The notes under the pieces were generated by a model. It was not told where the DNA came from. It made no database searches and worked only from the letters and a program-made list of their open reading frames with translations. The position numbers were made by a program, and so were the translations under genes. DNA of 64,000 nt from Eledone cirrhosa (taxonomy: Eukaryota). Numbering within the stretch: the first letter of the stretch is position 1; every line of letters begins with the position of its first letter. Of this stretch, positions 2,372-62,130 are shown piece after piece. The DNA lies in contig OZ024756.1 of assembly GCA_964016885.1 (NCBI GenBank), positions 43,710,001 to 43,774,000 of the forward strand. Direction: 5' to 3'.

Positions 2372-2413
2372 ATGCTAGCAGAAAACCACCTTCGGGTGGT
2401 TTTCTGCTAGCAT
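2372..2413. other. Perfect 19-bp stem with TTCG loop (putative Helitron 3' terminator hairpin)
   Basis: ATGCTAGCAGAAAACCACC-TTCG-GGTGGTTTTCTGCTAGCAT, read directly. Confidence 0.9.
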
Positions 2414-4166
2414 GTGTAGTGTGTATGTTGATATTATACACAAGTATATATACATGTAGATATGATACATGTGTAGTGTGTATGTTGATATTATACACAA
2501 GTATATATACATGTAGATATGATACATGTGTAGTGTGTATGTTGATATTATACACAAGTATATATACATGTAGATATGATACATGTGTAGTGTGTATGTT
2601 GATATTATACACAAGTATATATACATGTAGATATGATACATGTGTAGTGTGTATGTTTATATTATACACAAGTATATATATACATGTAGATATGATACAT
2701 GTGTAGTGTGTAAATTGATATTATACACAAGTATATATACATGTAGATATGATACATGTGTAGTGTGTATGTTGATATTATACACAAGTATATATACATG
2801 TAGATATGATACATGTGTAGTGTGTATGTTGATATTATACACAAGTATATATACATGTAGATATGATACATGTGTAGTGTGTATGTTGATATTATACACA
2901 AGTATATATACATGTAGATATGATACATGTGTAGTGTGTATGTTGATATTATACACAAGTATATATACATGTAGATATGATACATGTGTAGTGTGTATGT
3001 TGATATTATACACAAGTATATATACATGTAGATATGATACATGTGTAGTGTGTATGTTGATATTATACACAAGTATATATACATGTAGATATGATACATG
3101 TGTAGTGTGTATGTTTATATTATACACAAGTATATATATACATGTAGATATGATACATGTGTAGTGTGTATGTTGATATTATACACAAGTATATATACAT
3201 GTAGATATGATACATGTGTAGTGTGTATGTTGATATTATACACAAGTATATATACATGTAGATATGATACATGTGTAGTGTGTATGTTGATATTATACAC
3301 AAGTATATATACATGTAGATATGATACATGTGTAGTGTGTATGTTGATATTATACACAAGTATATATACATGTAGATATGATACATGTGTAGTGTGTATG
3401 TTGATATTATACACAAGTATATATACATGTAGATATGATACATGTGTAGTGTGTATGTTGATATTATACACAAGTATATATACATGTAGATATGATACAT
3501 GTGTAGTGTGTATGTTGATATTATACACAAGTATATATATACATGTAGATATGATACATGTGTAGTGTGTAAATTGATATTATACACAAGTATATATACA
3601 TGTAGATATGATACATGTGTAGTGTGTATGTTGATATTATACACAAGTATATATACATGTAGATATGATACATGTGTAGTGTGTATATTGATATTATACA
3701 CAAGTATATATACATGTAGATATGATACATGTGTAGTGTGTATGTTGATATTATACACAAGTATATATACATGTAGATATGATACATCAAATAAAATCGT
3801 AATTGACAATATCCACAGAAATTGAACGAAGACTGCGTTACACTGTCTCATGTAATCAGTAACGTAATCCATGATACATTAAAAAAAGACGATATATATA
3901 AACTGCATTAGGAGAAAATTAGTGACGGAAAATTAATGTTTATTTAAGCGATCGCCACCGGAAGTGTTGACATTTGAAAATTTTAAAGAAGTGAATCATT
4001 AAATAAATAATAAAATATATTTAATGAACAGCCACGAAATTTAGCAGATAAATTATGTAATATTCATTCATTATTTGTTCAAAGTAATTCAACTTGTTTT
4101 ACAAAAGGGATAACAAAATAATAAACCATACGCTATCCCGCAGACCTTCCTTTATTATAGTTTAGA
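2375..4166 (-). mobile_element. Non-autonomous Helitron-like element carrying an internal satellite array
   Basis: Minus strand starts A|TCTAAACTATAATAAAGG (Helitron-type 5' TC end, 4166) and ends in a hairpin plus CTAG (2375). No TSD. The 3' flanking base is C rather than the canonical T. Confidence 0.65.
2411..3787. repeat. 57-bp tandem satellite, ~24 copies
   Basis: Unit CATGTGTAGTGTGTATGTTGATATTATACACAAGTATATATACATGTAGATATGATA; 19-aa periodicity in the ORF track; near-identical copies. Confidence 0.97.
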
Positions 4167-6511: not shown

Positions 6512-7151
6512 GTAAGTCTATTTCACACACATTTGTTATTTATCTAACATTAATATTAACAACAGCAATAATAATAATATTTTTTTCTACTTTTGGCACA
6601 AGGCCAGCAATTATCCGAGTGCATTACTGGTACTTTATTTTATTGACCCCGTAAGGGAGAAAGGCAAAGTTAACCTGGTGAGATTTGAACTCAATAATAA
6701 TGTTTTTAATAGCCCCACAGGACTCACATTAAGGAGACAATAAAGACAGTACAGTGTGTCTTTTTTTCTTTTTGTATGAAATAGAATATATAACAGATTA
6801 AGAAAATAAATATTTAAAAACAATTCAAACATAACAAATTCCTCAAAGGTCAGGAGACTGAGGGTTACTCATTGAGAAAGCCCACAAAAGCCACAGTCAA
6901 ACTGACCACTAGGGCAAGTCATAATAATAATTATTTCTACTTTAAGCCCAAGGTCAGCAATTTGGGCTCATTGAATTACAGGATTATACCCGAGTCCTTT
7001 ACTCCGTTATTTTACTTGATATATGTATGTATATGTATATATATGAATATATATGTATATGAATATATATGTATATATATGTATATATATATATGAATAT
7101 ATATGTATGTATATGTATATATATATATGTATATATATGTGTATATGTATT

Positions 7152-7533
7152 CATCATCATCATCAACGTTTAACGTCCGTGTTCCACGCTTGCATGGGTT
7201 TGGACGGGGGTTTTCCCTCTTGAGGCAAGAGTGATTGTCTTGCTCGCATAGGACTGTCTGGCAGGTTTTCTACAGTTGGATGCCCTTCCTAACACCAACC
7301 ACATTTACAGTGTGGGTCTGGGAGGTTTTTACCGTGTTGCCTACACGGCCACATTACAGCGTGGACTGTTTTTTTGTCGTGACACCTACACGATCTCATT
7401 TGTTTCGGCCTGGATGGTGTGGCACCAACATAACTTTACGTAGAAGGGGGCGGTGTGGATGGGTGGTGGGACGGGGGTGTATTTTGTTAGAGATGCCTAC
7501 TGACTGTAGTATGTTTTACTTTGTATTTAGGTA
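7152..7533 (-). mobile_element. RTE family A, 3'UTR-only fragment
   Basis: (ATG)n tail at 7152; matches the 3'UTR of other family A copies. Confidence 0.92.
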
Positions 7534-7558
7534 ATATATATATATACATATATATATA

Positions 7559-8517
7559 TAGAAATAGTGGACAGCTTCCGTTACCTGGGCGACAAAATCA
7601 GCAGTGGGGGAGGGTGCTCTGAAAGTACAGTAGATAGAGTCAGAACTGGTTGGAAAAAGTTCAGAGAGCTTATACCACTATTAGCCGCTAAAGGGTTCTC
7701 CCTAAGAATGAAAGGCAGGTTGTATGATGCCTGCATACGAACAGCAATGTTGCATGGCAGTGAGACCTGGGCATTGTGTGCAGAGGATATACGCAGACTA
7801 GAGAGGAACGAAGATTGCATGCTCCGCTGGATGTGTAATAGTAACATACGTGAACGGCAAAGCATATGCGAACTAAGGAAATAATTAGAAATAAGAGTGA
7901 TCAGATGTTGTTTACTCGAGAGAAGGCTACGTTGGTATGGTCAGGTGATGCGCATGAAAGACGACAGCTGTATAACAAAGTGCAGGGCAATAAAGATAGA
8001 CGGTAGCTACGGAGTAGGCAGACCCAGAAAAACCTGGGACGAGCTGATAAATTCTGACCTCACACACTTACACCTCTCCAAGACAATGTCACTGGACCGA
8101 GACCTTTGGCGGTACTCAGTAATAGAGAAGACTCGCCTTTCCTAAATACAAAGTAAAACCTACTACAGCCAGTAGGCATCTCTAACAAAATACACCCCCC
8201 CCCCCCTCACCCCCCCCCCCCCCCCCCCCATCCACACCGCCCCTTTCAATGTAAAGTTATGTTGGTGCCACAACATCCAGGCCGAAACAAATGAGATCGT
8301 GTAGGTGTCACGACAAAAAAACACACAGTCCACGCTGTAATGTGGCCGTGTAGGCAACACTGTAAATGCGGTTGGTGTTAGGAAGGGCATCCATCTGTAG
8401 AAAACCTGCCAGACAGTCCTATGCGAGCAAGACAATCACTCTTGCCTCAAGTGGGAAAACCCCCGTCCAAACCCATGCAAGCGTGGAACACGGACGTTAA
8501 ACGTTGATGATGATGAT
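7559..8517 (+). mobile_element. RTE family A, 5'-truncated copy
   Basis: DSFRYLGD...RLRWYG...GRPRKTW with one internal stop, followed by 3'UTR and (ATG)n tail. Confidence 0.95.
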
Positions 8518-8528
8518 ATATATATATA

Positions 8529-8884
8529 GGAAAAAGTATGACCCCTTTTTTTAAAAGAGAAAAAAGACAGTAGAGCTGAAGCCGTTTCCGTGGCTATTTC
8601 TGGACTAAATTAGAATTTTAGCCTGGTGCTTAAATAGCCTAACTTGTCAAGGGGGTACTTCCTTATATGGAAAGATTGTAGTTGTCAAGAGGATTGGTTA
8701 AAATTTGTTGTAAACACAAATAAGTCTATCATGGCATTTGGTGGGAGGTAGGGGTGGCTGAACTTGCCTGTAAAACAATGGGGGCTGAGTGGAGCCAGTC
8801 AAGCATAGAATAGGTAAATACCCTAAGTATTGAGTACTCTGGTGCGTTATGGTCCATCTGGTTCCTTACCACAATTCCTTTGTT
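8529..8884. mobile_element. Penelope-like pLTR fragment with inverted arrangement and hammerhead fold on the minus strand (8542-8655)
   Basis: Minus strand: CCCC-TTGACAA-GTTAGGCTATTT..AAATAGCCACG-GAAA-C..GTC. Segment 8821-8884 matches 60000-60063 in + orientation while the hammerhead part is inverted relative to that copy. Confidence 0.65.
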
Positions 8885-8916
8885 ATATATATATATATAT
8901 ATGTATGTATATGGTA

Positions 8917-8962
<46 letters not shown>

Positions 8963-9200
8963 AACGAGGGAAGAGGAATACTGCGTGGTTGCACATGGGT
9001 GACATATTATAAAATTAGTCCCTCATCAGTGATTTGCCAACCATCATTGGTATTTCATCGCATTAAAAATCAGATAACTCAGGTTGGTGAGAGCAATAAC
9101 TAAAATAAGCTATTGGGACAAGTGAATCGCGTAAAGCGAGTGAGACAAGTAAACAACAAGAAGGAAAAGCAAACCGAAGGTCGGAAAACAGCAAGCAACA

Positions 9201-9250
<50 letters not shown>

Positions 9251-9279
9251 GGTAATATATATGTATATATATATATATA

Positions 9280-9322
<43 letters not shown>

Positions 9323-9363
9323 GGTAATATATATGTATATATATATATATATATATATGTATG

Positions 9364-10908
9364 TCATCATCATCACCGTTTTACATCCGTTCTTCCACGC
9401 TAGCATGGGTTAGACGGGTTGTCCTGTTGTGGGCAGTGTCTGGTCGGCTGACCTTGCCTTGCTCATACAGGAACTGATCTGGCTTGATTTCTACAGCTGG
9501 ATGCCCTTCCTAACACCAACCTCATTTACAGTGAGTGCTGGGTGTTTTTTCGTGGCGCCTACACGTCCACTTTACAGTGTGGGCTGGGTGGTTTTTGCTG
9601 TGGCACCTCAACGACCACCTTGCAATGGGGGGTGTGGGGGCATATTGTCTATATGCTTCAGCATGTACCCATGGGAGGTCGGGTACTCTGTATTACTGCG
9701 TGACGCCAGAAGTCACGGTCGTCTGTCATTGTCTTTGAGAGGTGTAATTGGGTAAGGTCGGCTTTTATCACCTCATCCCAGGTCATCTTGGGTCTCCCCA
9801 CTCCGCGGTTTCCATCAACTTCTAGTGCTCTGCACCTTTTTATGCAGCTGTCATCCTTCATACGCATCACATGTCCATACCAGCGCAACCGCCTCTCCTG
9901 CACACAGCATTTGATTCCTCTTATGCTCAGTCTCTCTCTCAATTCATTTATGCTTTGTCGTTCACGTATATTACTGTTACACATCCATCGGAGCATGCAG
10001 GCTTCGTTTCTCTCTAATCTACGTAAGTCTTCCACCTTCAGCGCCCAGGTCTCACTACCATGCAACATCGCGGTTCGGATACACGCATCATACAGTCTGC
10101 CTTTCATTCTGAGGGAGAAGCCTTTTGCCGCTAGCAGTGGTAGTAGTTCCCTAAACTTCTTCCATCCCGTTCTTACCCTAGTTATTGTACTTTCTGAACA
10201 CCCACCTCCGCTGCTAATTCGGTCACCTAGGTAGCAGAAGCTGTCTACTGTTTCTACAGGGCCCTCCCAGAGATTGGTGGTACTTGTTTCCTGTGGCTGT
10301 TTGCTGCCTGCTGTCTCAGCACAGCTGCTGCATGTGAATCCTACATTCTTAATTAAGCTTCCTGAGATCCCGCTACATCTCTTGTGTACCCATTGTTTGC
10401 ATTTGGGGCAGAGAATGGAGTTCCTACCTACACCTTTCCTACATACTGAGCAAGGCCATTTCCCTGAGGGGATCTGGGTTCTGTTTTCTCGTCTACTTAC
10501 AAGGACCTTAGTCTTTGTCATGTTGACTTTGAGACCCTTTCTTTCTAGTCCCTGCTTCCAAGTTTGGAATTTATTCTCTAGTTCTACCATAGATTCAGCT
10601 ATGAGTGCGAGGTCATCAGCATACAGGAGTTCCCATGGGCATCCGGTCTTAAACTCCTCCTTTATTGCCTGCAGGACTATGATGAACAGGAGAGGGCTAA
10701 GAACAGAGCCCTGGTGGACCCCAACCTGTACGCTAAATTCCTCGCTATACTCATTGCTAATCCTAACTTTGCTGACTGCTCCTCTATACATGGCTTGTAC
10801 CGCTTTCACAAGCCATTCATCTACTCCTTGTTTTCTAAGAGCCCACCAGATTACAGCACGTGGAACTCTGTCAAAGGCTTTCTCAAGGTCGACAAATGCC
10901 AAGTAGAG
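9364..10908 (-). mobile_element. RTE family B, 5'-truncated copy (RT with PHD insert, stop at 9658)
   Basis: FVDLEKAFD, GVHQGSVLSP, YADD and C4HC3 motif; distinct 3'UTR; (ATG)n tail. The ORF-track N-terminus is microsatellite read-through. Confidence 0.95.
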
Positions 10909-10936
10909 TATATATGTATATGGTAATATATATATG

Positions 10937-10981
<45 letters not shown>

Positions 10982-10988
<7 letters not shown>

Positions 10989-12000
10989 TTAGAAACACAC
11001 AGATACATGCGGACACACACATATATACATGAATGCATCCGCACCCAACTGTGAGTTAAGGGTGCCAACTTCACCGATGTTGCTCAATGAATGACTGGGA
11101 CAGACCAATTCAGTTGAACTAGACTGAACCAGTATCAGAGTTAAAAATACATTATGAAGAGAGAAGAAACATTTAGATATAATTAGTAATAAAATGTATC
11201 ATACCTAAACTGCTCCTAAATTCCTCAACTACGTAGTTTCGTGGCATAAAGAAAAACAATATATCATAAAGATATAGAGTCCTTGCGAGGTCTGCCGACT
11301 TATCAAGAGGATACCTCATTTTACTAGTCTCAAGAACGCGTCTACACGACGTGAGAAAGAATCCCAAAAGGCGGAGGGGGAGATAGTCACGCGATATAAC
11401 GGTTGAGAAACAGAGCTAAGCCTCTTATAACCCCGAAGAAAATACCACGGAGGCGGAGGGGGTATTTATATCGAGGCCGTAGAAGAGGTGGTGAAGAAGG
11501 CGAGAAGTATGAGTAATGGAAGCTTTCCAGCTGTCCCCACACTTCAAAGATTGCTCGACCAGAGGGAGTTATTAACAATATATTTAGAAACACACAGATA
11601 CATGCGGACACACACATATATACATGAATGCATCCGCACCCAACTGTGAGTTAAGGGTGCCAACTTCACCGATGTTGCTCAATGAATGACTGGGACAGAC
11701 CAATTCAGTTGAACTAGACTGAGCCAGTATCAGAGTTAAAAATACATTATGAAGAGAGAAGAAACATTTAGATATAATTAGTAATAAAATGTATCATACC
11801 TAAAGACGCGTTCTTGAGACTAGTAAAATGAGGTATCCTCTTGATAAGTCGGCAGACCTCGCAAGGACTCTATATCTTTATGATATATTGTTTTTGTTTA
11901 TGCCACGAAACTACGTAGTCGAGGAATTTAGGAGCAGTTTAGGTATGATACATTTTATTACTAATTATATCTAAATGTTTCTTCTCTCTTCATAATGTAT
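10982..12000. mobile_element. Penelope-like element remnant: direct repeat plus inverted partial copy
   Basis: 10982-11209 recurs at 11577-11804, and 11805-12000 is the reverse complement of ~11147-11342. This tandem plus inverted pLTR layout with a hammerhead is typical of Penelope-like elements. Confidence 0.75.
11836..11925 (+). ncRNA. Type I hammerhead ribozyme, U3-A8 core variant (second copy on the minus strand at 11222-11311)
   Basis: Stem I TCCTC/GAGGA; core TTGATAA; stem II GTCGGCA..TGCCAC with a large loop; GAAA; palindromic stem III ACTACGTAGT; cleavage triplet GTC (cut after 11920). The minus-strand copy has GTT. Folded by eye. Confidence 0.72.
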
Positions 12001-12026
12001 ATATATATATATATATGTATATGGTA

Positions 12027-12070
<44 letters not shown>

Positions 12071-12444
12071 GGTAATATATGTATCATCATCATCATCATC
12101 ATCATCATCAACGTTTAACGTCCGTGTTCCACGCTTGCATGGGTTTGGACGGGGGTAGTCCCACTTGAGGCAAGAGTGATTGTCTTGCTCGCATAGGACT
12201 GTCTGGCAGGTTTTCTACAGTTGGATGCCCTTCCTAACACCAACCACATTTACAGTGTGGGTCTGGGAGGTTTTTACCGTGTTGCCTACACGGCCACATT
12301 ACAGCGTGGACTGTGTGTTTTTTTGTCGTGACACCTACACGATCTCATTTGTTTCGGCCTGGATGGCGCGGCACCAACATAACTTTACATAGAACGGGGT
12401 GGTGTGGATGGGGTGGGGGTGGTGGCGGGACGGGGTGTATTTTG

Positions 12445-15400
12445 TTAGAGATGCCTACTGGCAAGGCGGGTCTTCTCTGTTACTGAGTACCGCCAAAGGT
12501 CACGGTCCAGTGACATTGTCTTGGAGAGGTGTAAGTGTGTGAGGTCGGAGTTTATCAGCTCATCCCATGTTTTTCTAGGTCTGCCTAATCCGTGGCTACC
12601 GTCTATCTTTATTGCCCTGCACTTTGTAATACAGCTATCGACTTTCATGCGCATCACGTGTCCATACCAACGCAGCCTTCTCTCGAGTAAACAACATCTG
12701 ATCCCTCTTATCTCTAATTTTTTCCTTAGTTCGTTTATGCTTTGCCGTTCACATATATTACTGTTACACATCCAGCGGAGCATGCAAGCTTCGTTCCTCT
12801 CTAGTCTGCGTATATCCTCTGCACACAATGCCCAGGTCTCACTACCATGCAACATTGCTGTTCGTATGCAGGCATCGTACAACCTGCCTTTCATTTTTAG
12901 GGAGAACCCTTTAGCAGCTAATAGTGGTATAAGCTCTCTGAACTTTTTCCAACCAGTTCTGACTCTAGCTACAGTACTTTCAGAGCACCCTCCCCCACTG
13001 CTGATTTTATCGCCCAGGTAACGGAAGCTGTCCACTCTTTCTATAGAACCCTCTGCGCAATTGAAAGAGCTAGTATTTTGTGGGCACTTGCTGCTACTTA
13101 TTGCACCAGAACACCGGCCACATGTAAAGTCTATGTTCTTAGTTAGCTTACCTGTGATCCCACTACATCTTTTATGCACCCATACTTTGCATTTAGGACA
13201 TAAGATGGAGTTTCTACCTACGCCTTTCCTACATACCGAGCACGACCATTTCCCAGAAGGGACCGCCGCCTTGTTTTCTTTCCTACAAACTAGAACTTTG
13301 GTCTTAGCCAGGTTAATTTTAAGTCCTTTTGACTCTAGGCCGTGCTTCCATGTTTGGAATTTCTTCTCTAGCTCGGCCATTGATTCCGCTATGAGTGTCA
13401 GGTCGTCTGCGTATAGGAGTTCCCATGGGCAGCCTGTCTTGAACTCCTCTGTTATAGCCTGAAGGGCAATAATAAATAGTAGGGGGCTGAGAACAGAGCC
13501 CTGATGGACGCCAACTTTTACGCTAAACTCTTCACTATATTCGTTGTTAATTCTAACTTTGCTGACTGTTTCTTTATACATGGCTTGTATAGCCCTCACA
13601 AGCCATTCGTCAACGCCTAGTTTTCTAAGAGCCCACCAGATAATGGAGCGGGGGACTCTGTCGAAGGCTTTCTCCAGGTCGACAAAAGCTAAGTAGAGGG
13701 GTTTACCTTTAGCTAGGTACTTCTCCTGTAGTTGTCGTACTATGAAAAGAGCGTCTGTGGTGCTTTTGCCTGACACAAACCCGAACTGCATTTCATCTAG
13801 ATCAATTCTCTCTCTGATTAGTTGCGCTATTACTTTTTCCGTGACCTTCATGACCTGGTCGATTAATTTAATGCCTCTATAGTTACTCCTATCTAGGGCG
13901 TCTCCTTTACCCTTATAACAGTTAACGATGATGCTGCTATGCCAGTCCTTCGGAACAACCCCATTCTGTACGACTTGGTTAACTATGCGGGTGACCATGG
14001 TGTGTCCCACCGTGCCAGATGCCTTCAGCATCTCAGCAACTATTTCCGAAGGCCCAGCCGCCTTACCAGTCTTCATATCCTTGATTGCCTTACTTATTAT
14101 ACTCCCCTCGACTAACACTGCTGGTCCCTCTATCGGGTCGATATGGGGGAGACTGTCTTTCTCCCATTTATTCTCCTCATTTAGTAGCCTTTCATAGTGA
14201 CACTTCCAAGCTACCTTCTTATCAGTGTCGGTGATGGCAAGTATGCCATCATCGTTAAGTACACACTTCTCCCCGACAATATCACGGTTTTCCTTGACGC
14301 ATTGCCTGGCAATCCTGAACACCTCACGTTTTTGGTCATCGCGTTGTAGAACATGCTTGAACTTTCTTTCCTCAGCTTCCCTTCTTGCTAAGTACACTTC
14401 TCTCCTAGCTTCCCTCCTGGCCACTTGATAGTCTACTCTACTTCCCCCATCCCGCCATACTTTCCAAGCCTGCTTTTTGGCCTTAATTGACCCCTCCACC
14501 CTACTGTTCCACCACCATGTTACTCTCCTCCTGCCTACAGGCCTGCTCCAGCCACAGACTTCGTCTGTCGCCAACAGCAGGTTTGCTTTCAGAAATTCCC
14601 GCTGTCCCTCTATATTGTCCGATTCTAGATGCTCTTCCTTACTGTCGAAAGCATCAAGTAATATGCTTTGAAATTTATTTCTGGCTGTGGGGTCCTTTAG
14701 TTTCCATATTTTCCTCCTGAGGATAGTCCTCTTCTGCTGTCGAGTACGTCTCGTCCTGACTATGAGGTCGCTAATTATCAGTCTATGTTGGGAGGTGCAT
14801 TCTTCATGGGGGAGGGATTTAGTGTTTACAACAGACACTCTGTCACGTCTTCTGGTAAGGATATAATCTACCTGGCTTGTGTGTTCCTCGGATCTATAGG
14901 TGATCAGGTGATTGTCACGTTTTTTGAAGTTAGTGTTACAGATAGTTAGGTTATTTGCATCACAGTATTCCAGGACTCTGGAGCCTTCCTCATTTCTAGT
15001 ACCAAACCCATAGCCTCCATGGATTTCGTCGTAGCCGTCACAATGTTGTCCAACGTGACCATTTAGGTCGCCTGCAATAATTATATAGTCACTGTCAGAT
15101 ATTTGGGAGGTAGTTAGCAACAGTGTCTCATAGAATCTGTCTTTTATAGTGCCGGGCAGTCCGGATTGGGGTGCGTACGCAGATATTACTGTCACCGTAG
15201 TTCTATTGAGGACAAGTCTTATTTTAATTATTCTGTCGTTCACTCTATTTACGTCTATTATCTTATCTGCCCACTTTTCTGCTACCATGATTCCTACTCC
15301 ACCCAGCCCATCGTCGTTTCCCACCCAGAAAAGCTTATAACATCGTTTTTTACCCTCAATGAATCTAGCAGACCCACCCCTCCACCTGGTCTCTTGAATA

Positions 15401-15735
15401 CAACAAACATCGACCTCCTTACGTTCAAGCATTTCTACAACCTCGTTAGCGCGACCCTTTAGGGTGCCTACATTTATGGTACCAACTCTGAAGTTTTGGG
15501 TTGCATTTGGAGGGTGGGGGTGGTGGGGGGCGGGAGGAGATAGGGTTATGTTAGCCATCCGCGGACGAAACAAAGAGGAGTGCTCGCATTCTCGTCCACG
15601 AGGTGAATTTGACTTTAACTTTGGCATTTTCGCTCTGAGCGTCCAGATTTTTCTCTCCCTTCCACTCTCCAGGATTCCGCAGTCCGTCCGTCCATCCATC
15701 CATCCATCCATCATATATCGAAGGCAACCGGGCAA
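12445..15735 (-). CDS. RTE-clade LINE ORF: APE endonuclease + reverse transcriptase with internal PHD finger; uninterrupted
   Basis: EN motifs GTINVGTL, CIQETRW, SAYAPQ, GDLNGH, VDYIL, SQHRLI; RT motifs NYRGI, QFGF, FVDLEKAFD, QGSVLSP, YADD, FRYLG; RTE C-terminus RRLRWYGH..GRPRKTW. True start codon uncertain (e.g. ATG at 15627). Confidence 0.97.
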   Translation of the reverse strand: MPGCLRYMMDGWMDGRTDCGILESGRERKIWTLRAKMPKLKSNSPRGRECEHSSLFRPRMANITLSPPAPHHPHPPNATQNFRVGTINVGTLKGRANEVVEMLERKEVDVCCIQETRWRGGSARFIEGKKRCYKLFWVGNDDGLGGVGIMVAEKWADKIIDVNRVNDRIIKIRLVLNRTTVTVISAYAPQSGLPGTIKDRFYETLLLTTSQISDSDYIIIAGDLNGHVGQHCDGYDEIHGGYGFGTRNEEGSRVLEYCDANNLTICNTNFKKRDNHLITYRSEEHTSQVDYILTRRRDRVSVVNTKSLPHEECTSQHRLIISDLIVRTRRTRQQKRTILRRKIWKLKDPTARNKFQSILLDAFDSKEEHLESDNIEGQREFLKANLLLATDEVCGWSRPVGRRRVTWWWNSRVEGSIKAKKQAWKVWRDGGSRVDYQVARREARREVYLARREAEERKFKHVLQRDDQKREVFRIARQCVKENRDIVGEKCVLNDDGILAITDTDKKVAWKCHYERLLNEENKWEKDSLPHIDPIEGPAVLVEGSIISKAIKDMKTGKAAGPSEIVAEMLKASGTVGHTMVTRIVNQVVQNGVVPKDWHSSIIVNCYKGKGDALDRSNYRGIKLIDQVMKVTEKVIAQLIRERIDLDEMQFGFVSGKSTTDALFIVRQLQEKYLAKGKPLYLAFVDLEKAFDRVPRSIIWWALRKLGVDEWLVRAIQAMYKETVSKVRINNEYSEEFSVKVGVHQGSVLSPLLFIIALQAITEEFKTGCPWELLYADDLTLIAESMAELEKKFQTWKHGLESKGLKINLAKTKVLVCRKENKAAVPSGKWSCSVCRKGVGRNSILCPKCKVWVHKRCSGITGKLTKNIDFTCGRCSGAISSSKCPQNTSSFNCAEGSIERVDSFRYLGDKISSGGGCSESTVARVRTGWKKFRELIPLLAAKGFSLKMKGRLYDACIRTAMLHGSETWALCAEDIRRLERNEACMLRWMCNSNICERQSINELRKKLEIRGIRCCLLERRLRWYGHVMRMKVDSCITKCRAIKIDGSHGLGRPRKTWDELINSDLTHLHLSKTMSLDRDLWRYSVTEKTRLASRHL

Positions 15736-15921
15736 GCGATAGTATAGGCCTCTGGCTTATGATTTGGTCCGCGTAATAATAATAATGGTGATGCGTGGGG
15801 GTGGGGGGCTCTGGCTTATAATAATGATGGTGATGCGTGGGGGGGGGGCTCTGGCTTATGATTGGTCCACGTATTAAGTATGGTGGTGTGTGGGGGCGGG
15901 AGGGAGGGGTGTGGGGTAGCT

Positions 15922-16206
15922 AGCTGGAAGGTTATGAATGTTTAACAAGCGATTTAACAAAAAGCAAAACTGCAAGATTTGTTCTGTTCAATACGACAAA
16001 AACACCGTATTTAAACCTTAAATAGATAACAAAAAATACAGATTTCGGATTTTGCGAGATTGGATGTTTGGACTATGTACGAAATTGAGCGTGGAATGGA
16101 TAGAGAAAAATTTGTACTTTACGATTTACATGAGTACACCATAGTAGAAATAATTGAAGCAGCGGTGGATTGGCGAAAGTGAATAAACATGAAGGAGAAC
16201 TTATCT

Positions 16207-16237
<31 letters not shown>

Positions 16238-16824
16238 AGCTAAGAGAGAAAGAGAGGGGGGAGAAGGGGGAGAGATATTGTGGCTGACCGCAGCCCCTCG
16301 TGGAGTAGCAGGAGGGTGAAGGGGTGGAGCGGATTTTTGACTTTCAAGTAGCATACTATATATATTTAAAGTAATTTATAAGTAGAATGGGAAGGATTTT
16401 GTTTTTTGTTTGAGAATACGATAGAATTAAGGAATTGGACGATACGATAGAATTAAGAATGGGAAGGATTTTGTTTTTTTTTTGTTTGGGGATACGATAG
16501 AATTAAGGAATTGGAGAATACGATAGAATTAATGAATTGATGAGCTGGAAGGTTATGAATGTTTAACAAGCGATTTAACAAAAAGCAAAACTGCAAGATT
16601 TGTTCTGTTCAATACGACAAAAACACCGTATTTAAACCTTAAATAGATAACAAAAAATACAGATTTCGGATTTTGCGAGATTGGATGTTTGGACTATGTA
16701 CGAAATTGAGCGTGGAATGGATAGAGAAAAATTTGTACTTTACGATTTACATGAGTACACCATAGTAGAAATAATTGAAGCAGCGGTGGATTGGCGAAAG
16801 TGAATAAACATGGAGAACTTATCT

Positions 16825-16855
<31 letters not shown>

Positions 16856-17444
16856 AGCTAAGAGAGAAAGAGAGGGGGGGAAGGGGGAGAGATATTGTGG
16901 CTGACCGCAGCCCCTCGTGGAGTAGCAGGAGGGTGAAGGGGTGGAGCGGATTTTTGACTTTCAAGTAGCATACTATATATATTTAAAGTAATTTATAAGT
17001 AGAATGGGAAGGATTTTGTTTTTTGTTTGAGAATACGATAGAATTAAGGAATTGGACGATACGATAGAATTAAGAATGGGAAGGATTTTGTTTTTTTTTT
17101 GTTTGGGGATACGATAGAATTAAGGAATTGGAGAATACGATAGAATTAATGAATTGATGAGCTGGAAGGTTATGAATGTTTAACAAGCGATTTAACAAAA
17201 AGCAAAACTGCAAGATTTGTTCTGTTCAATACGACAAAAACACCGTATTTAAACCTTAAATAGATAACAAAAAATACAGATTTCGGATTTTGCGAGATTG
17301 GATGTTTGGACTATGTACGAAATTGAGCGTGGAATGGATAGAGAAAAATTTGTACTTTACGATTTACATGAGTACACCATAGTAGAAATAATTGAAGCAG
17401 CGGTGGATTGGCGAAAGTGAATAAACATGAAGGAGAACTTATCT

Positions 17445-17479
<35 letters not shown>

Positions 17480-18083
17480 AGCTAAGAGAGAGATAGAGGG
17501 GAAGAAAGAGAGGGGGGGGAAGGGGGAGAGATATTGTGGCTGACCGCAGCCCCTCGTGGAGTAGCAGGAGGGTGAAGGGGTGGAGCGGATTTTTGACTTT
17601 CAAGTAGCATACTATATATATTTAAAGTAATTTATAAGTAGAATGGGAAGGATTTTGTTTTTTGTTTGAGAATACGATAGAATTAAGGAATTGGACGATA
17701 CGATAGAATTAAGAATGGGAAGGATTTTGTTTTTTTTTTGTTTGGGGATACGATAGAATTAAGGAATTGGAGAATACGATAGAATTAATGAATTGATGAG
17801 CTGGAAGGTTATGAATGTTTAACAAGCGATTTAACAAAAAGAAAAACTGCAAGATTTGTTCTGTTCAATACGACAAAAACACCGTATTTAAACCTTAAAT
17901 AGATAACAAAAAATACAGATTTCGGATTTTGCGAGATTGGATGTTTGGACTATGTACGAAATTGAGCGTGGAATGGATAGAGAAAAATTTGTACTTTACG
18001 ATTTACATGAGTACACCATAGTAGAAATAATTGAAGCAGCGGTGGATTGGCGAAAGTGAATAAACATGAAGGAGAACTTATCT

Positions 18084-18118
<35 letters not shown>

Positions 18119-18725
18119 AGCTAAGAGAGAGATAGAGGGGAAGAAAGAGAGGGGGGGGGGGAAGGGGGAGAGATATTGTGGCTGACCGCAGCCCCTCGTG
18201 GAGTAGCAGGAGGGTGAAGGGGTGGAGCGGATTTTTGACTTTCAAGTAGCATACTATATATATTTAAAGTAATTTATAAGTAGAATGGGAAGGATTTTGT
18301 CTTTTGTTTGAGAATACGATAGAATTAAGGAATTGGACGATACGATAGAATTAAGAATGGGAAGGATTTTGTTTTTTTTTTGTTTGGGGATACGATAGAA
18401 TTAAGGAATTGGAGAATACGATAGAATTAATGAATTGATGAGCTGGAAGGTTATGAATGTTTAACAAGCGATTTAACAAAAAGCAAAACTGCAAGATTTG
18501 TTCTGTTCAATACGACAAAAACACCGTATTTAAACCTTAAATAGATAACAAAAAATACAGATTTCGGATTTTGCGAGATTGGATGTTTGGACTATGTACG
18601 AAATTGAGCGTGGAATGGATAGAGAAAAATTTGTACTTTACGATTTACATGAGTACACCATAGTAGAAATAATTGAAGCAGCGGTGGATTGGCGAAAGTG
18701 AATAAACATGAAGGAGAACTTATCT

Positions 18726-18760
<35 letters not shown>

Positions 18761-19363
18761 AGCTAAGAGAGAGATAGAGGGGAAGAAAGAGAGGGGGGGA
18801 AGGGGGAGAGATATTGTGGCTGACCGCAGCCCCTCGTGGAGTAGCAGGAGGGTGAAGGGGTGGAGCGGATTTTTGACTTTCAAGTAGCATACTATATATA
18901 TTTAAAGTAATTTATAAGTAGAATGGGAAGGATTTTGTTTTTTGTTTGAGAATACGATAGAATTAAGGAATTGGACGATACGATAGAATTAAGAATGGGA
19001 AGGATTTTGTTTTTTTTTTGTTTGGGGATACGATAGAATTAAGGAATTGGAGAATACGATAGAATTAATGAATTGATGAGCTGGAAGGTTATGAATGTTT
19101 AACAAGCGATTTAACAAAAAGCAAAACTGCAAGATTTGTTCTGTTCAATACGACAAAAACACCGTATTTAAACCTTAAATAGATAACAAAAAATACAGAT
19201 TTCGGATTTTGCGAGATTGGATGTTTGGACTATGTACGAAATTGAGCGTGGAATGGATAGAGAAAAATTTGTACTTTACGATTTACATGAGTACACCATA
19301 GTAGAAATAATTGAAGCAGCGGTGGATTGGCGAAAGTGAATAAACATGAAGGAGAACTTATCT

Positions 19364-19398
<35 letters not shown>

Positions 19399-20000
19399 AG
19401 CTAAGAGAGAGATAGAGGGGAAGAAAGAGAGGGGGGAAGGGGGAGAGATATTGTGGCTGACCGCAGCCCCTCGTGGAGTAGCAGGAGGGTGAAGGGGTGG
19501 AGCGGATTTTTGACTTTCAAGTAGCATACTATATATATTTAAAGTAATTTATAAGTAGAATGGGAAGGATTTTGTCTTTTGTTTGAGAATACGATAGAAT
19601 TAAGGAATTGGACGATACGATAGAATTAAGAATGGGAAGGATTTTGTTTTTTTTTTGTTTGGGGATACGATAGAATTAAGGAATTGGAGAATACGATAGA
19701 ATTAATGAATTGATGAGCTGGAAGGTTATGAATGTTTAACAAGCGATTTAACAAAAAGCAAAACTGCAAGATTTGTTCTGTTCAATACGACAAAAACACC
19801 GTATTTAAACCTTAAATAGATAACAAAAAATACAGATTTCGGATTTTGCGAGATTGGATGTTTGGACTATGTACGAAATTGAGCGTGGAATGGATAGAGA
19901 AAAATTTGTACTTTACGATTTACATGAGTACACCATAGTAGAAATAATTGAAGCAGCGGTGGATTGGCGAAAGTGAATAAACATGAAGGAGAACTTATCT

Positions 20001-20039
<39 letters not shown>

Positions 20040-20506
20040 AGCTAAGAGAGAGATAGAGGGGAAGAAAGAGAGGGGGGGGAAGGGGGAGAGATATTGTGGC
20101 TGACCGCAGCCCCTCGTGGAGTAGCAGGAGGGTGAAGGGGTGGAGCGGATTTTTGACTTTCAAGTAGCATACTATATATATTTAAAGTAATTTATAAGTA
20201 GAATGGGAAGGATTTTGTTTTTTGTTTGAGAATACGATAGAATTAAGGAATTGGACGATACGATAGAATTAAGAATGGGAAGGATTTTGTTTTTTTTTTG
20301 TTTGGGGATACGATAGAATTAAGGAATTGGAGAATACGATAGAATTAATGAATTGATGAGCTGGAAGGTTATGAATGTTTAACAAGCGATTTAACAAAAA
20401 GCAAAACTGCAAGATTTGTTCTGTTCAATACGACAAAAACACCGTATTTAAACCTTAAATAGATAACAAAAAATACAGATTTCGGATTTTGCGAGATTGG
20501 ATGTTT
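15922..20506. repeat. Tandem array of ~620-640 bp units: 7 full copies plus a ~150-bp partial copy
   Basis: AGCTGGAAGGTTATGAATG recurs at 15922, 16543, 17160, 17799, 18441, 19079, 19716 and 20359. Units differ mainly in (TA)/(TG)/G-run lengths and one short indel. Confidence 0.97.
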
Positions 20507-20540
<34 letters not shown>

Positions 20541-20571
20541 TGTATATGTATATATATATATGTATATGGTA

Positions 20572-20615
<44 letters not shown>

Positions 20616-20690
20616 GGTAATATATATATATATATATATATATGTATATGGTAATATATATATATATATGTATATGGTAATATATATGTA

Positions 20691-21321
20691 TTTCATTTCA
20701 TTTCATTTCATTTGAGTTTGAGTCCATGCTCAGGCCAAGTCGAAGACTCCACCCTCAGAGTCTGGTGTGGTTGCCAGGTTGGATTCTCTGTTTAATTTTG
20801 ACATGTGTAGGAGCGAGTTTGAGTCAGTTTGTGCTCGTTGTGTATATCCTGGGAGATGGGGTTCATCTCTAATGGTGCTTAAGTATCTATCCAGCTGCAA
20901 TTTGAATGATTCCACACTGCATCCTGATAGATTTCTGACATGTACCGGAATGGAGTTGAATAGTTGTGCCCCTCGAACCAACAGACTTGACTCTCGCAGG
21001 GTTTTTGCTGCCTGGCCAGCCTTTTTGTTGATTGGTGGTAGCTGGCAGCGTCTTCCGTGGTGCAGTGAGTGGTAGGTTTTGATACCAAAGTTTGGCACCT
21101 TTTGCTCTATCATTTTCCAAATGTATATAATTCGGTATCGCTCAAATCTTCTTTCTATTGAGTACATCTTCAAGGTTTTGAGTCTTTGCCAATAGTCCAG
21201 GTCCCTCGTTTCTGAGAAGTATGAGGTAAAATTTCTTTGGAGCGATTCCATCTTAGATAGTTGGCCCTTTGTTGTTGGTGACCACAACTGAGAACAGTAG
21301 TCAATCCTCGGAAGTATCATA
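20691..21321 (-). mobile_element. CR1-clade LINE 3' fragment
   Basis: PRIDYCSQLWSP..MESLQRNFT..FNSIP; (AAATG)n tail; near-identical to 25921-26480. Confidence 0.9.
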
Positions 21322-21761
21322 CTGGACCGAGATCTTTGGCGGTACTCAGTAATAGAGAAGACCCGTCTTACCTAAATACAAAGTAAAACCTACTACAGTC
21401 AGTAGGCATCTCTAACAAAATACACCCCCGTCCCACCACCCCCACCCCATCCACACCGCCCCTTTCAATGTAAAGTTATGTTGGTGCCACAACATCCAGG
21501 CCGAAACAAATGAGATCGTGTAGGTGTCATGACAAAAAAAACACAGTCCACGCTGTAATGTGGCCGTGTAGGCAACACAGTAAAAACCTCCCAGCCCCAC
21601 ACTGTAAATGTGGTTGGTGTTAGGAAGGGCATCCAGCTGTGGAAAACCCGCCAGACAGTCCTATGCGAGCAAGACAACCACTCTTGCCTCAAGTGGGAAA
21701 ACTCCCGTCCAAACCCATGCAAGCGTGGAACATGGACGTTAAATGATGATGATGATGATGA
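21321..21761 (+). mobile_element. RTE family A 3' fragment fused 5'-to-5' to the CR1 fragment
   Basis: Begins ACTGGACCGAGATCTTTGG immediately after the CR1 sequence; ends in (ATG)n. Confidence 0.92.
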
Positions 21762-22009
21762 TATATATATATGTATATGGTAATATATATACATATATAT
21801 AGCACAGGCTTGTGCAGGATATGTTATAATTTATTCCTCCACACCCAGCTGAGTCATAACTGACATATGGTCTTTTTTATCTTTTTTTCGTGAAATCGCT
21901 GTGTGTGTTTTTATATATAAATATACACACACACACACACAAACACACGTGTGTGTGTATATATATATATATGCACACACGATTTATTTGCTTTTGTCTT
22001 GTGATTGTG

Positions 22010-22945
22010 TTCAAAATAAAGGTCTCTAACTGGAGGTCAGTAAGTGAGGGGGGGGGGGCATTTCAATTGATTAACTCCAGTATTTGACTGGTATTTTCTT
22101 TTGACTCCCCGAAAGGATGAAAGGAAAAGTTGCCTTTGACAGGATTTGAACTCAGTGTAAAGAGAGAAATATTTTTCTGGCTCTTTATGTTCAGTCCTAA
22201 AACTAATTGGCAGATCGGTAGAGCATCCGACAGAACGTTTTTGTAATATTTGTTTGGAGTTCAAATCCTACCAAAGGTCAACTTTGCTTTTCATCCTTTT
22301 TGATAAAGTATGATACCGAGCAAGTGCTAAGCGGTTGGGTCATTATAATTGTCCCTCCTCAGGCAAGTGCTAGGGGGAGGGGTCATTATAATTGCCCCTC
22401 CTCAGGCAAGTGCTAGGGGGAGGGGTCATTATAATTGTCCCTCCTCAGGCAAGTGCTAGGGGGAGGGGTCATTATAATTGCCCCTCCTCGGGCAAATGCT
22501 AGAAGGTGTGGTCATTATAATTGCCTCTCCTCGGGCAAGTGTTAGGGGGTGGGGTCATTATAATTGCCTCTCCTCGGGCAAGTGCTAGGGGGTGGGGTCA
22601 TTATAATTGCCCCTCCTCTGGCAAGTGCTAGGGGGCGGGGTCATTATAATTGCCCCTCCTCCCCTTCCTCTGGCAATTGCTAGCCTTGTGCCTGAATTAG
22701 AATGGTTAAAGGAGGGTGATGGTGGATTGATTGTAATCGGGAGAGCATCAGACACCATGCTCTGTGGCACAGAGTTACGGACCTTTATGGACCGAGTTCA
22801 AATCTCGGCAAGGTTAACTTTGCCTTTCATTCTTATGGGGTCGATAAAATATAGTAGCAGTAATACACTGGGGTTGATTTAATCAACTTTCCCCTCCCCT
22901 TCAAATTGCTGGACTTGTGCCTAAATAAAAAAAATTATTATTGCT
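22010..22945. mobile_element. Cluster of three family-1 SINE copies (one minus, two plus)
   Basis: Core and tail motifs as above; the middle copy contains the 43-bp minisatellite. Confidence 0.7.
22321..22660. repeat. 43-bp minisatellite, 8 copies, near-palindromic unit
   Basis: CAAGTGCTAGGGGGAGGGGTCATTATAATTGCCCCTCCTC(A/G)GG starting at 22321, 22364 ... 22622. Confidence 0.95.
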
Positions 22946-36647: not shown

Positions 36648-38390
36648 ATCATCATCATCATCATTTTACGTCCGCTTTTCCCTGCTTGCAAGGGTGGGAC
36701 GGGTCTTATTCAGCACAGCATCTCTCCACTCGTCACGGTCCCTCATCATCTCCACCGTGAGCTTCAATGATCTGAGGTCTGTTCTCACCACCTCCGCCCA
36801 TGTTTTTCGTGGTCTACCTCTACCACGTCTTCCTTCAACTGGCATTTCCTGGCACTTCTTTACCCATCGGTCATCCTCCATGTGCATCACATGTCCATAC
36901 CACCTCAGTCTCCTCTCCCGTACACTACATTCTATCCCTCTCAGGCACAGTTTCTCTCTCAACACATTTATGCTGGGTCGTTCACGCACATTTACACTGC
37001 ACATCCAACGGAGCATGCTTGCCTCATTTCTCTCCAGCCGTCGCATATCCTCTGCAGTTGCTGCCCATGTCTCACTACCATGCAGCATCGCACTCCTCAC
37101 ACAGGCATCATACAACCGGCCTTTCGTACGCAGGGAGAAACCCTTCTTCGTCAACAGAGGAAGCAGCTTTCTAAACTTCTTCCAACCCGTCCTTATTCTA
37201 GATACTATGGCCTCGGAACACCCTCCTCCCATGCTAATCTGATCTCCTAGGTACCGGAAGCTATCCACCACTTCTATAGCGCCATCTCGCATTTGAAAAA
37301 TGTGTCTATCAGTGCGACTTCTACTGTCTAATTTCCCTGTACATCTACTGCATACATATTTCTCCCTACCTGTTAGTTTGCCTGCTATCCCGCTACATCT
37401 CTTGTGTACCCAGGACCTGCATTGTGTGCATTTTATAGAATTTATGCCAGTTCCTTTTCTGCATATCGAACATGGCCATTTCCCTGACGGAATCAGGGTT
37501 TTGTCCTCTTTTCTACTCATTAACACTTTTGTCTTAGCTAGATTTACTCTCAGTCCTCTTGCTTCCAACTGCTGTTTCCATAGCCGGAATTTATTCTCTA
37601 GCTCCTCTATTGATTCTGCTATAAGAGCCAGATCGTCAGCATAGAGAAGTTCCCATGGACAACCAGTCTTAAACTCCTCTGTTATGGCTTGGAGGACTAT
37701 AATGAACAAGAGCGGGCTAAGGACCGAACCTTGATGTACTCCTACTTGTATCTGGAATTCCTCACTAAACTCCATTCCTACCCTGACTTTACTGAGAGTA
37801 CCTCTGTACAAAGTTTGCACTGTCCTCACAAGCCATTCCTCAACACCTAGCTTCCTTAGGGACCACCAGATGACAGATCGGGGTACCCTATCAAAGGCCT
37901 TCTCTAGGTCAACAAAGGCTAAGTATAGTGGCTTATTCTTCTCTAAGAACCTCTCTTGCATTTGTCTCACCAAGAAGAGGGCATCTGTTGTACTCTTCCC
38001 AGGCACAAAACCAAACTGCATCTCATCCAGTTTGACCCTTTCTCTAATTAGTTGTGCTAAAATCCTTTCTGCCACTTTCATAACCTGATCTATCAGTTTT
38101 ATACCCCTATAATTGCTCCTCTCCAAAGCATCCCCTTTACCTTTGTAGCAATTTATGAGAATACTGCTGCACCAGTCTTTGGGTATGACACCACCATATA
38201 TAGCCTGATTGATGATGTGTGCAACCAGTTTAGTGCCTACGTCCCCTGATGCCTTCAGCATCTCAGCAACCATTCCCGATGGTCCGGCCGCCTTACCATG
38301 TTTCATTTCCCTAATCGCCTCTTGGATCCTATATTCGTCAATCTCAATAGCTGGTCCCTCTGTCGGATCTACCAAGGGTAATTTCTCTCT
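36648..38390 (-). mobile_element. RTE family C, 5'-truncated; open RT frame (36666-38375) running up to the tail
   Basis: QFGF, FVDLEKAFD, YADD and PHD motif; diverged from A and B; stop codon directly before (ATG)n, so essentially no 3'UTR. Confidence 0.95.
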
Positions 38391-38640
38391 ATAATATATA
38401 TATACATTATATATATATATTATATATATTATATATATATATATATTATATATATTATATATATATATATATTATATATATATATATATTATATATATTA
38501 TATATATATATACATTATATATATATATTATATATATTATATATATATATATACATTATATATATATATTATATATATTATATATATATATACATTATAT
38601 ATATATATTAAATATATTATATATATATATATATTATATA

Positions 38641-41911: not shown

Positions 41912-41960
41912 TATATATATAAATACATAGGCATCTCTAACAAAATACATATATATATAA

Positions 41961-41993
<33 letters not shown>

Positions 41994-51560: not shown

Positions 51561-52319
51561 TTTTTTCCCCTTCTTTTTCTCTTCTCTTTCCTTTTTTTAA
51601 AAATATATATATATGCATCATCGTTTAACGTATGTGTATGGTATGTATATGTGTGTGTGTATATATATATACATACACACACGTTTTTAGTGGTAGCATT
51701 CCTGCAACAATTTTCTTTAGACATTGAAAAACATACATGGCATTCCAAGAAATCCCAAACGCTATAAGATAAACAGGATGTAAACTAAACGACTAATTCT
51801 GTCGAGATAACCTAGAGAAATTACCATTTTTTTTTTTTCCAACTGTGATTAGAATGTCTCAGGAAAGATTCACTGGACAGATTTTACAGGTAAAACCAAC
51901 CGGCAGGAGACCCAGGGGTAGACCCCAAACAAGATGGTTGGATAACATCCTTGAGCTTGGCTGGTCTCACTAGGGGGATCCAGCCGGATCAGTTGGAGAC
52001 TGTTGCTCCTGGAAGGAGTATTTTGAGGACTCTGCTCCCACAACTCTCTCAGGAATATATGGGCGAAGAATAAGTGTGCTAGTTGATTTCACCAACATAC
52101 CGATGCTATTCTATTCGTTAGATTTAGAAGCTATAAGATTTAGAAGCTATAAGATTAATGGCTATAAATGTGTTAACACATATAGTGAATACCACCGGAC
52201 ATCAAGATAAATCCGGTTGTCTTTGAAACCTTAGGTTCTACTTGTCCTCCTCTACAGTGCCGAAACCTTGACTAATATTCCTGGTAGATCAAGCAATCTC
52301 ATTGGCACTCAAATGATAT

Positions 52320-54480: not shown

Positions 54481-54576
54481 TATATATTTTTTTATATAAT
54501 TTCTACCTGTAATGTATACCTGTTTTAGCTAGTTTCGGGTGTGATCCAGTATGAATCCTTTTTGGCCTCTTTCCAG

Positions 54577-56453: not shown

Positions 56454-62130
<5,677 letters not shown>

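What the first reader, a model, noticed from the sequence alone, without database searches (positions are those of the whole stretch)
7020..21800. Insertion nest 1: one marked (TA)n target re-duplicated at successive insertion junctions
Seen: the diagnostic motif TGTATATGGTAATATAT occurs about 11 times (near 8913, 9251, 9323, 10922, 12023, 12071, 20568, 20616, 20650, 20676, 21779), only between inserts, and I saw it nowhere else in the window. The 5' junction at 7530 also uses GGTAA as microhomology. Inference: RTE-A, RTE-B, CR1 and Penelope-like elements hit the same site in series. Each TSD creates more target, a self-amplifying landing pad that records insertion order.
Basis: partly seen in the sequence, partly recalled or inferred. 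Interest (0 to 1): 0.75.

Follow-up and report, generated by a model that had tools for sequence, protein, structure and literature searches.

The report
Retrotransposon pile-up in one TA repeat
Nine jumping-gene copies of different ages sit side by side in one TA repeat, and a rare spelling variant of that repeat recurs between them; most of its copies likely came from ordinary repeat slippage, and only the youngest insertion likely duplicated it.

Summary
The 17-mer occurs 11 times, only in TA tracts between inserts, and 11 of its 21 exact copies in the 3.0-Gb assembly lie here. The 14.8-kb block is a side-by-side array of nine independent retroelement insertions of different ages: five RTE-type, one CR1-type and three Penelope-like. 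The '638-bp satellite' is the 5' monomer array of a young intact RTE (35 of 36 arrays fetched). RTEs prefer (TA)n (27 of 32 against 6.5% background) and sit in about twice the expected TA, so a landing pad is plausible. But only the youngest RTE has a convincing duplication (exact 77 nt plus 41 nt of filler). At least 5 of 12 motif copies need no target duplication. A near-identical marker is amplified 36-fold elsewhere with no insert between copies. Genome-wide, RTE junctions show no excess of long duplications over uncut tracts (8 of 46 vs 107 of 600). The motif is a passive tracer and does not give the insertion order. The closest precedent is the plant SaTar arrays. The scan had already noted TA-targeting Penelope-like elements and an octopus LINE with a 5' monomer array elsewhere in this genome.

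The parts
7019..7150 (.). T0: left compound TA tract with G/GA interruptions; ends GTAT, the likely left half of a twelfth motif copy split by E1
   Evidence: split copy is inference
7151..7534 (-). E1: 5'-truncated RTE-A, (GAT)n tail on the left; its last five bases GGTAA (7530-7534) are shared with the marker
   Evidence: nearest copy 1.3% mismatch
7530..7556 (.). T1: GGTAA + TA run with a C interruption, like the right end T7
7557..8517 (+). E2: 5'-truncated RTE-A, TATA microhomology at its 5' join; followed by 11 nt of TA without the motif
   Evidence: nearest copy 1.37%
8529..8884 (.). E3: terminal piece of a Penelope-like family whose longer copies carry a GIY-YIG-type frame
   Evidence: nearest copy 5.4% over a 245-nt part
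8885..8958 (+). T2 with motif copy 1 (8906-8922)
8959..9202 (.). E4: non-coding piece of a family with about 530-nt tandem units, Penelope-like layout
   Evidence: nearest copy 2.05%
9203..9364 (+). T3 with motif copies 2 and 3; exact 69-nt internal tandem repeat (9216, 9288), no insert between
9365..10908 (-). E5: 5'-truncated RTE-B (RT + PHD)
   Evidence: nearest copy 1.7%
10909..10988 (+). T4 with motif copy 4 (10915)
10983..12000 (.). E6: young non-coding element, 595-nt unit in direct plus inverted copies (Penelope-like or retrozyme-like layout)
   Evidence: nearest copy 0.53%
12004..12080 (+). Left copy of the exact 77-nt direct repeat (motif copies 5 and 6), 2 nt from the tail of E7
12083..15922 (-). 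E7: full-length RTE-A; intact frame 12445-15558 (1037 aa from Met; endonuclease, RT, PHD)
   Evidence: nearest copy 0.33%
15923..20507 (-). 5' monomer array of E7: seven whole 617-643-nt units plus a partial one, 0-4 substitutions apart
20508..20548 (.). 41-nt TA-rich filler at the 5' join of E7
20549..20625 (+). Right copy of the exact 77-nt repeat (motif copies 7 and 8)
20626..20692 (+). Rest of T6 with tandem motif copies 9 and 10
20693..21324 (-). E8: young 5'-truncated CR1-type LINE, (AAATG)n tail; fused to E9 through 4 shared bases, no TA between
   Evidence: nearest copy 0.34%; clade label recalled
21321..21760 (+). E9: RTE-A 3' piece with (GAT)n tail
   Evidence: nearest copy 1.9%
21761..21800 (+). 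T7 with motif copy 11 (21772) and a C interruption; single-copy flank follows

Best explanation
This is a side-by-side array of nine retroelement copies of different ages in one compound (TA)n tract, in which a rare GGTAA variant is likely a passive tracer, multiplied mostly by tandem slippage inside the tract and likely once (two copies, 77 nt) by target duplication at the youngest RTE. Shown: the anatomy, the ages, the TA preference and the exact repeats. Inferred steps: (1) TA-preferring RTE and Penelope-like enzymes nick any TA run and prime there; (2) the 5' end is joined by short microhomology in whichever TA register pairs, giving a duplication with filler (E7), a near-blunt join (E1) or a deletion into a neighbour (E8 into E9); (3) each insertion leaves TA on both sides and the pieces lengthen, so later elements land in the linkers and not inside earlier elements.
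For: Motif is locus-private. The four RTE-A pieces differ from each other by 9-17 substitutions in about 350-390 nt, more than each differs from its nearest copy elsewhere (0.3-1.9%), so they are separate events. The three youngest inserts (0.33-0.53%) lie together inside, between E5 and E9. (TA)4 within 20 nt: full-length RTE-A 27 of 32 at the 3' end and 29 of 34 at the 5' end; E9-type 11 of 24; RTE-B 12 of 24; CR1 6 of 18; background 2587 of 39920 positions; E3 family terminus 19 of 19. Exact 77-nt repeat around E7 with the 43 non-matching bases sitting at its two joins; a match of 77 nt or more arises at 1.5% of 600 random cuts. Slippage: 69-nt internal repeat in T3; 36 tandem copies of the 15-mer core in one tract on C6 and two copies each in two other tracts. 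No nicking preference for interruptions (4 observed vs 5.1 expected of 45). Microhomology at the 5' joins, about 1-6 nt read by eye. TA around 25 young RTE-A copies: median 164 nt against 80 nt at position-weighted random cuts.
Against: No empty allele or second individual was seen; the flank is single-copy in the assembly. The 77-nt repeat could be an older spaced duplicate, since T3 holds a 69-nt one. The null rests on only 20 stretches with non-independent points, and longer flanking TA could reflect preference for long tracts instead of gain. Four cross-insert motif copies (at E2/E3, E4, E5, E9) cannot be assigned to slippage or to duplication. Nearest-copy ages cannot order the five inserts at 1.3-2.05%, and E3's age may be inflated by sampling.
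Confidence: 0.7

Rival explanations
1. One reading: every insertion duplicated the marked target, so the motif copies record the order of insertion.
For: The motif is present in every linker but one; exact 77-nt repeat at E7; 31 nt shared across E8/E9; 9 of 69 RTE loci match their own 5' flank better than all other flanks; old duplications may have been blurred by slippage.
Against: That 9-of-69 signal vanishes against the proper null (8 of 46 vs 107 of 600). E6 is 0.53% diverged, yet its flanking tracts share no long motif-bearing block. T3-T7 share 30 nt without being partners, so the 31 nt at E9 is not specific. Four copies have no insert between them. At about 14 unique-sequence RTE sites (sorted by eye from 21 rows) no flush duplication of 7 nt or more was found.
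Confidence: 0.1
2. Slippage only: all copies, including the 77-nt pair, arose by tandem duplication in the tract, and the elements merely split it without adding target.
For: No genome-wide excess of duplications; within-tract amplification is common (5 of 45 tracts with a rare marker repeat it); 69-nt exact repeat in T3.
Against: The 77-nt pair is not a simple tandem: 43 unrelated bases separate the copies and lie exactly at E7's joins. Young insertions sit in about twice the expected TA.
Confidence: 0.15
3. The marker was born at E1's 5' join (element GGTAA abutting TA) and then copied rightward; it is not an ancestral variant. This is compatible with the best explanation except for the marker's origin.
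For: GGTAA at 7530 is element sequence; RTE-A copies are often truncated onto TA a few bases away (loose ends at 21374-21387).
Against: The tract left of E1 ends in GTAT, which rebuilds the full motif when E1 is removed (inference). E1 is not the oldest insert (1.3%). The 15-mer core arises independently at many other loci (197 matches).
Confidence: 0.15
4. Segmental duplication or misassembly.
For: 795 nt of TA linkers and a 4.6-kb array are hard to assemble.
Against: The inserts belong to different families with different ages, and none is a copy of another. Monomer arrays joined to RTE-A recur at 35 other places. Similar linked arrays are common (15 of 31 full-length RTE-A copies; no matched null).
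Confidence: 0.03

Closest known systems
SaTar modular arrays and TAFTA of plants (PMC5907723: abstract, passages, section 'SaTar targeting'); MuTAnT (PMC4486113: abstract)
   Same: [quoted passage not shown]
   Different: Those are Mutator-type DNA transposons in plants; here the members are LINEs and Penelope-like retroelements in an animal, with a private marker as tracer.
Naiad/Neptune Penelope-like elements (PMC8557442: passages)
   Same: (TA)n insertion bias, tandem and inverted terminal repeats, TSDs not discernible; Naiads are reported from Octopus spp.
   Different: The clade of E3, E4 and E6 was not determined, and E4 and E6 show no coding frame; the paper does not describe shared arrays with LINEs in the passages read.
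RTE-clade LINEs: SR3 (PMC1291365: passages), RTE-2_OV (PMC9115989: passages), lepidopteran RTEs (PMC2887409: passages), RTE insertion signature (PMC6007223: abstract)
   Same: One frame of about 1000-1100 aa with endonuclease and RT, a tail of short tandem repeats, many 3' fragments.
   Different: SR3 has 10-12-bp TSDs and lepidopteran RTEs carry their microsatellite inside the element. Here the TA lies outside on both sides, flush TSDs were not found, the RT region holds a PHD, and the 5' end is a monomer array.
Mouse L1 5' monomer promoters (PMC10620060: search listing only; otherwise recalled)
   Same: A variable number of tandem 5' units with the outermost one cut short.
   Different: Units of about 640 nt on an RTE-type element; promoter activity untested.

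Membership tests
SaTar-type modular array | Each element flanked by microsatellite | tested here: met
   All joins are TA except the E8/E9 fusion
SaTar-type modular array | No element interrupts another | tested here: met
   Nine inserts side by side; one fusion, no split element
SaTar-type modular array | Members are Mutator-like DNA transposons with terminal inverted repeats | tested here: not met
   Members are RT-encoding LINEs and Penelope-like pieces: works like a SaTar array, is not one
SaTar-type modular array | Target TA expands on insertion (as for TAFTA) | tested here: inconclusive
   Median 164 vs 80 nt, but no empty allele
RTE clade (E1, E2, E5, E7, E9) | Single frame with AP endonuclease and RT | tested here: met
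   E7: PF03372, PF00078, PF00628
RTE clade (E1, E2, E5, E7, E9) | 3' tail of short tandem repeats | tested here: met
   (GAT)n
RTE clade (E1, E2, E5, E7, E9) | RT groups with RTE elements in a tree | not tested
   No named reference sequences were fetched; Atlas clusters carry no clade name; label rests on layout and recalled motifs
Canonical LINE target-site duplication | Direct repeat flush with both ends at unique-sequence sites | tested here: not met
   Best matches 3-7 nt at about 14 unique sites; 5' ends set by BLAST and may be a few bases off
Canonical LINE target-site duplication | Excess of duplicated flank over uncut tracts | tested here: not met
   8 of 46 vs 107 of 600
Penelope-like elements (E3, E4, E6) | Tandem and inverted terminal repeats | tested here: met
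   Family copies; E6 itself
Penelope-like elements (E3, E4, E6) | GIY-YIG endonuclease frame in longer copies | tested here: inconclusive
   Seen by motif inspection beside E3 relatives (L101, L105), no profile scan; not shown to belong to E4 or E6
Retrozyme (E4, E6) | Hammerhead ribozyme in the unit | tested here: inconclusive
   No Rfam hammerhead at E<=1; one core-like string in E4 by a recalled pattern; permuted forms not tested
CR1/L2-type LINE (E8) | Clade placement by RT tree | not tested
   A longer relative in the window has RT and endonuclease hits; label recalled from motifs and tail

The most novel reading that the evidence does not exclude
An RTE-type LINE that targets (TA)n adds target when it inserts, through a long out-of-register duplication plus templated filler, roughly doubling the tract. 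This would be a positive-feedback engine, shared with Penelope-like elements, that builds multi-family retroelement arrays and helps explain why perfect TA runs fill about 5% of this genome.
Probability: 0.35. Interest if true: 0.6.

Novelty: new variant of a known kind. Interest (0 to 1): 0.36.

Why it matters
Microsatellite-linked transposon arrays are described for plant DNA transposons, and TA bias for Penelope-like elements. Eight searches listed no paper on a TA-targeting RTE or on mixed LINE/Penelope arrays in a cephalopod-type genome; subscription papers and supplements were not seen. A privately marked tract makes target duplication visible where pure TA hides it, so this locus offers a direct test of whether insertion adds microsatellite. 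The result also warns that marker sharing across an insert is weak evidence for a TSD, because compound TA tracts are self-similar on their own.

Tried and rejected
Family-wide long TSD: suggested by cross-locus controls (7 of 32; 9 of 69), rejected by the random-cut null. Exact flush-TSD length, own vs cross: medians 9 vs 7, uninformative. Marker as recognition site: rejected. Motif as element consensus: rejected. 638-bp array as a free satellite: rejected. Longer TA at 3' than at 5' ends: not seen (medians 68 vs 98, p 0.24). A shared rare marker across the second array (23100-45130): none seen by eye. Other spaced clusters of the 15-mer: two are minisatellites and one (L267) has copies on both sides of inserts, weak support only. 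Reads: three runs of one sample hold the region and three RAD runs come from other individuals. Nothing was laid on 21735-21905 because repeats are skipped, and no listed contig or read bridged the E8/E9 join; neither is a test. Rfam gave only sub-threshold microRNA hits, mostly on simple repeats. A second haplotype of the flank was not found in the assembly. The host-gene context (intron or intergenic) remains open.
Full report
OBSERVATION. The 17-mer has 11 exact copies in the window, all on the + strand and all in TA tracts; chance gives 1.44 even with two mismatches. The window lies on contig C17 of a 3.0-Gb assembly, probably an octopod (inference, in line with earlier scan notes; no call names it). 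The assembly holds 21 exact copies, 11 of them here, against 12 for the reversed control. The other ten sit in unrelated sequence, two of them as an inverted pair. So the motif is private to this locus and is not part of any element.

ANATOMY. Self-comparison, open frames and family searches resolve nine inserts. From left to right: E1 RTE-A(-), E2 RTE-A(+), E3, E4, E5 RTE-B(-), E6, E7 RTE-A(-) full length, E8 CR1-type(-), E9 RTE-A(+). They are separated by 795 nt of TA in nine tracts. No element is split by another; E8 is fused to E9 through four shared bases. E7 has an intact 1037-aa frame with endonuclease, RT and PHD hits. The RTE and CR1 labels rest on layout and recalled motifs, not on a tree. 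E3, E4 and E6 belong to families with tandem and inverted terminal repeats. GIY-YIG-like frames lie beside E3 relatives, while E4 and E6 showed none of their own and no Rfam hammerhead.

THE 638-bp ARRAY. I fetched 37 stretches around the chromosomal and contig hits. They hold 36 arrays, and 35 are joined in the same orientation to the 5' end of an RTE-A. The seven whole monomers of E7 differ by 0-4 substitutions. The array is therefore part of E7, which is one 8.4-kb unit, as inserted or expanded afterwards.

SERIAL INSERTION. Mismatch to the nearest other copy found: E7 0.33%, E8 0.34%, E6 0.53%, E1 1.3%, E2 1.37%, E5 1.7%, E9 1.9%, E4 2.05%, E3 5.4% (each search scored at most 40 candidates, and E1 had no search of its own). 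The RTE-A pieces are 9-17 substitutions apart from each other, so they are not copies of one another. The three youngest lie together in the interior. The five at 1.3-2.05% cannot be ordered.

TARGETING. In 200 kb taken at arbitrary round coordinates, 2587 of 39920 positions have (TA)4 within 20 nt, and perfect TA runs cover 10,972 bases. Full-length RTE-A copies have it at 27 of 32 tails and 29 of 34 5' ends. Older RTE-A have it at 11 of 24, RTE-B at 12 of 24, and CR1 at 6 of 18 (one locus dropped because the tail found belonged to another copy). All RTE tails pooled give 59 of 94. TA on the 5' side as well shows that it is target and not only tail. Insertions do not favour interruptions (4 observed vs 5.1 expected). 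15 of 31 full-length copies are linked through TA to another repeat (no null), and a second array of about 17 pieces fills 23100-45130.

HOW THE MOTIF MULTIPLIED. E7 with its array is enclosed by an exact 77-nt direct repeat (12004-12080 and 20549-20625) holding two motif copies, 2 nt from the tail and 41 nt from the 5' join. A simple tandem duplication would not leave 43 unrelated bases exactly at the joins, so I read it as a target duplication with filler (about 80%). Counting the split copy at 7150/7530 there are 12 copies. One is ancestral and two come from E7. Four are neighbours within a tract, including an exact 69-nt tandem in T3. One lies across E6, which is too young for its unlike flanks to be a decayed duplication. 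Four (at E2/E3, E4, E5, E9) are undecided. For E4, E5 and E6 the longest string shared by the flanking tracts is plain TA. The 15-mer core has 197 matches in the assembly (first 100 listed). One tract on C6 carries 36 in tandem with variable TA runs and no insert between, and two more tracts carry two each (six clusters fetched).

RESULT AGAINST A GENERAL TSD. Own-flank matches beat all cross-locus controls at 9 of 69 RTE loci, which first looked like a family trait. Against random cuts inside TA tracts the rate is the same: 8 of 46 insertions with TA on both sides vs 107 of 600 cuts. At about 14 unique-sequence sites there was no flush duplication of 7 nt or more. Long duplications are thus occasional, not the rule.

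IS THE PAD SELF-AMPLIFYING? Around 25 young full-length copies the two tracts total a median of 164 nt (quartiles 84-780), against 80 nt (57-169) at position-weighted cuts and 21 nt per tract. This fits a net gain of target but also a preference for long tracts; only empty alleles can decide.

MECHANISM. Shown: TA preference, short microhomology at the 5' joins, and one duplication with filler. Inferred: a near-blunt join at E1 and a deletion at E8/E9; priming in a TA run; 5' joining in a free TA register, which yields gain or loss; and slippage that lengthens linkers and copies interruptions. GGTAA at 7530 is element-encoded and truncations onto TA occur a few bases away, so a birth of the marker at that join remains a minority rival.

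COMPARISON. The architecture matches plant SaTar arrays (PMC5907723; abstract, passages and one section read), which are built of DNA transposons, so it works like them without being one. TA bias of Naiad elements, a group also present in Octopus, is published (PMC8557442, passages). Published RTEs have short TSDs or carry their own microsatellite (PMC1291365, PMC2887409, PMC9115989, passages; PMC6007223, abstract). The Octopus vulgaris repeat annotation reports recently active RTE, CR1 and Penelope families and TE hotspots (PMC13282606, first third read). Eight searches listed no account of a TA-targeting RTE array; supplements were not read and may bear on this.

VERDICT. A real, well-marked example of retroelement arrays in TA microsatellites and a new variant of a known kind. 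Interest 0.36.

Noticed in passing
window 15923-20507; L052-L088: Young RTE-A family carries a variable 5' monomer array (1-8 units of about 620-640 nt; about 550-nt and 247-nt variants at other loci), with the outermost unit cut at variable places, like rodent L1.
   Followed up: yes
window 23100-45130: Second TA-linked array of about 17 RTE, CR1 and SINE-like pieces with linkers up to about 1.9 kb, without one shared rare marker.
   Followed up: partly
window 41890-41967: Exact 38-nt tandem duplicate made of RTE 3' sequence plus TA, beside the tail of a very young RTE-A.
   Followed up: no
window 9203-9364, 12001-12084, 20508-20692: All three tracts with several motif copies abut the 3' tail of a minus-strand LINE; could reflect repeated priming at the start of reverse transcription.
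   Followed up: partly
L071 (full-length RTE-A): The marker in the 3' flank is the reverse complement of the marker repeated in the 5' flank, suggesting a strand switch in the palindromic TA target.
   Followed up: no
L062 (full-length RTE-A): A 24-nt duplicated flank continues as a 13-nt stretch with four transition differences between the two sides.
   Followed up: no
window 12445-15558: PHD finger inserted after the RT core in three RTE families of the window (E7, E5 and 36666-38471).
   Followed up: partly
window 54529-54897 (+): 122-aa non-repetitive frame with a proline run and tyrosine motifs resembling a receptor tail (recalled); possible last exon of a host gene.
   Followed up: no
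window 56470-62128: 5.6-kb compound TA array holding one short E3-family piece at about 59950-60063.
   Followed up: no
window 2411-3787, 22320-22661, 52319-52705: Minisatellites of 57, 43 and 43 nt.
   Followed up: no
L268 (C6:24117110-24118148): 36 tandem copies of the marker's 15-mer core inside one tract, a natural control for slippage.
   Followed up: yes
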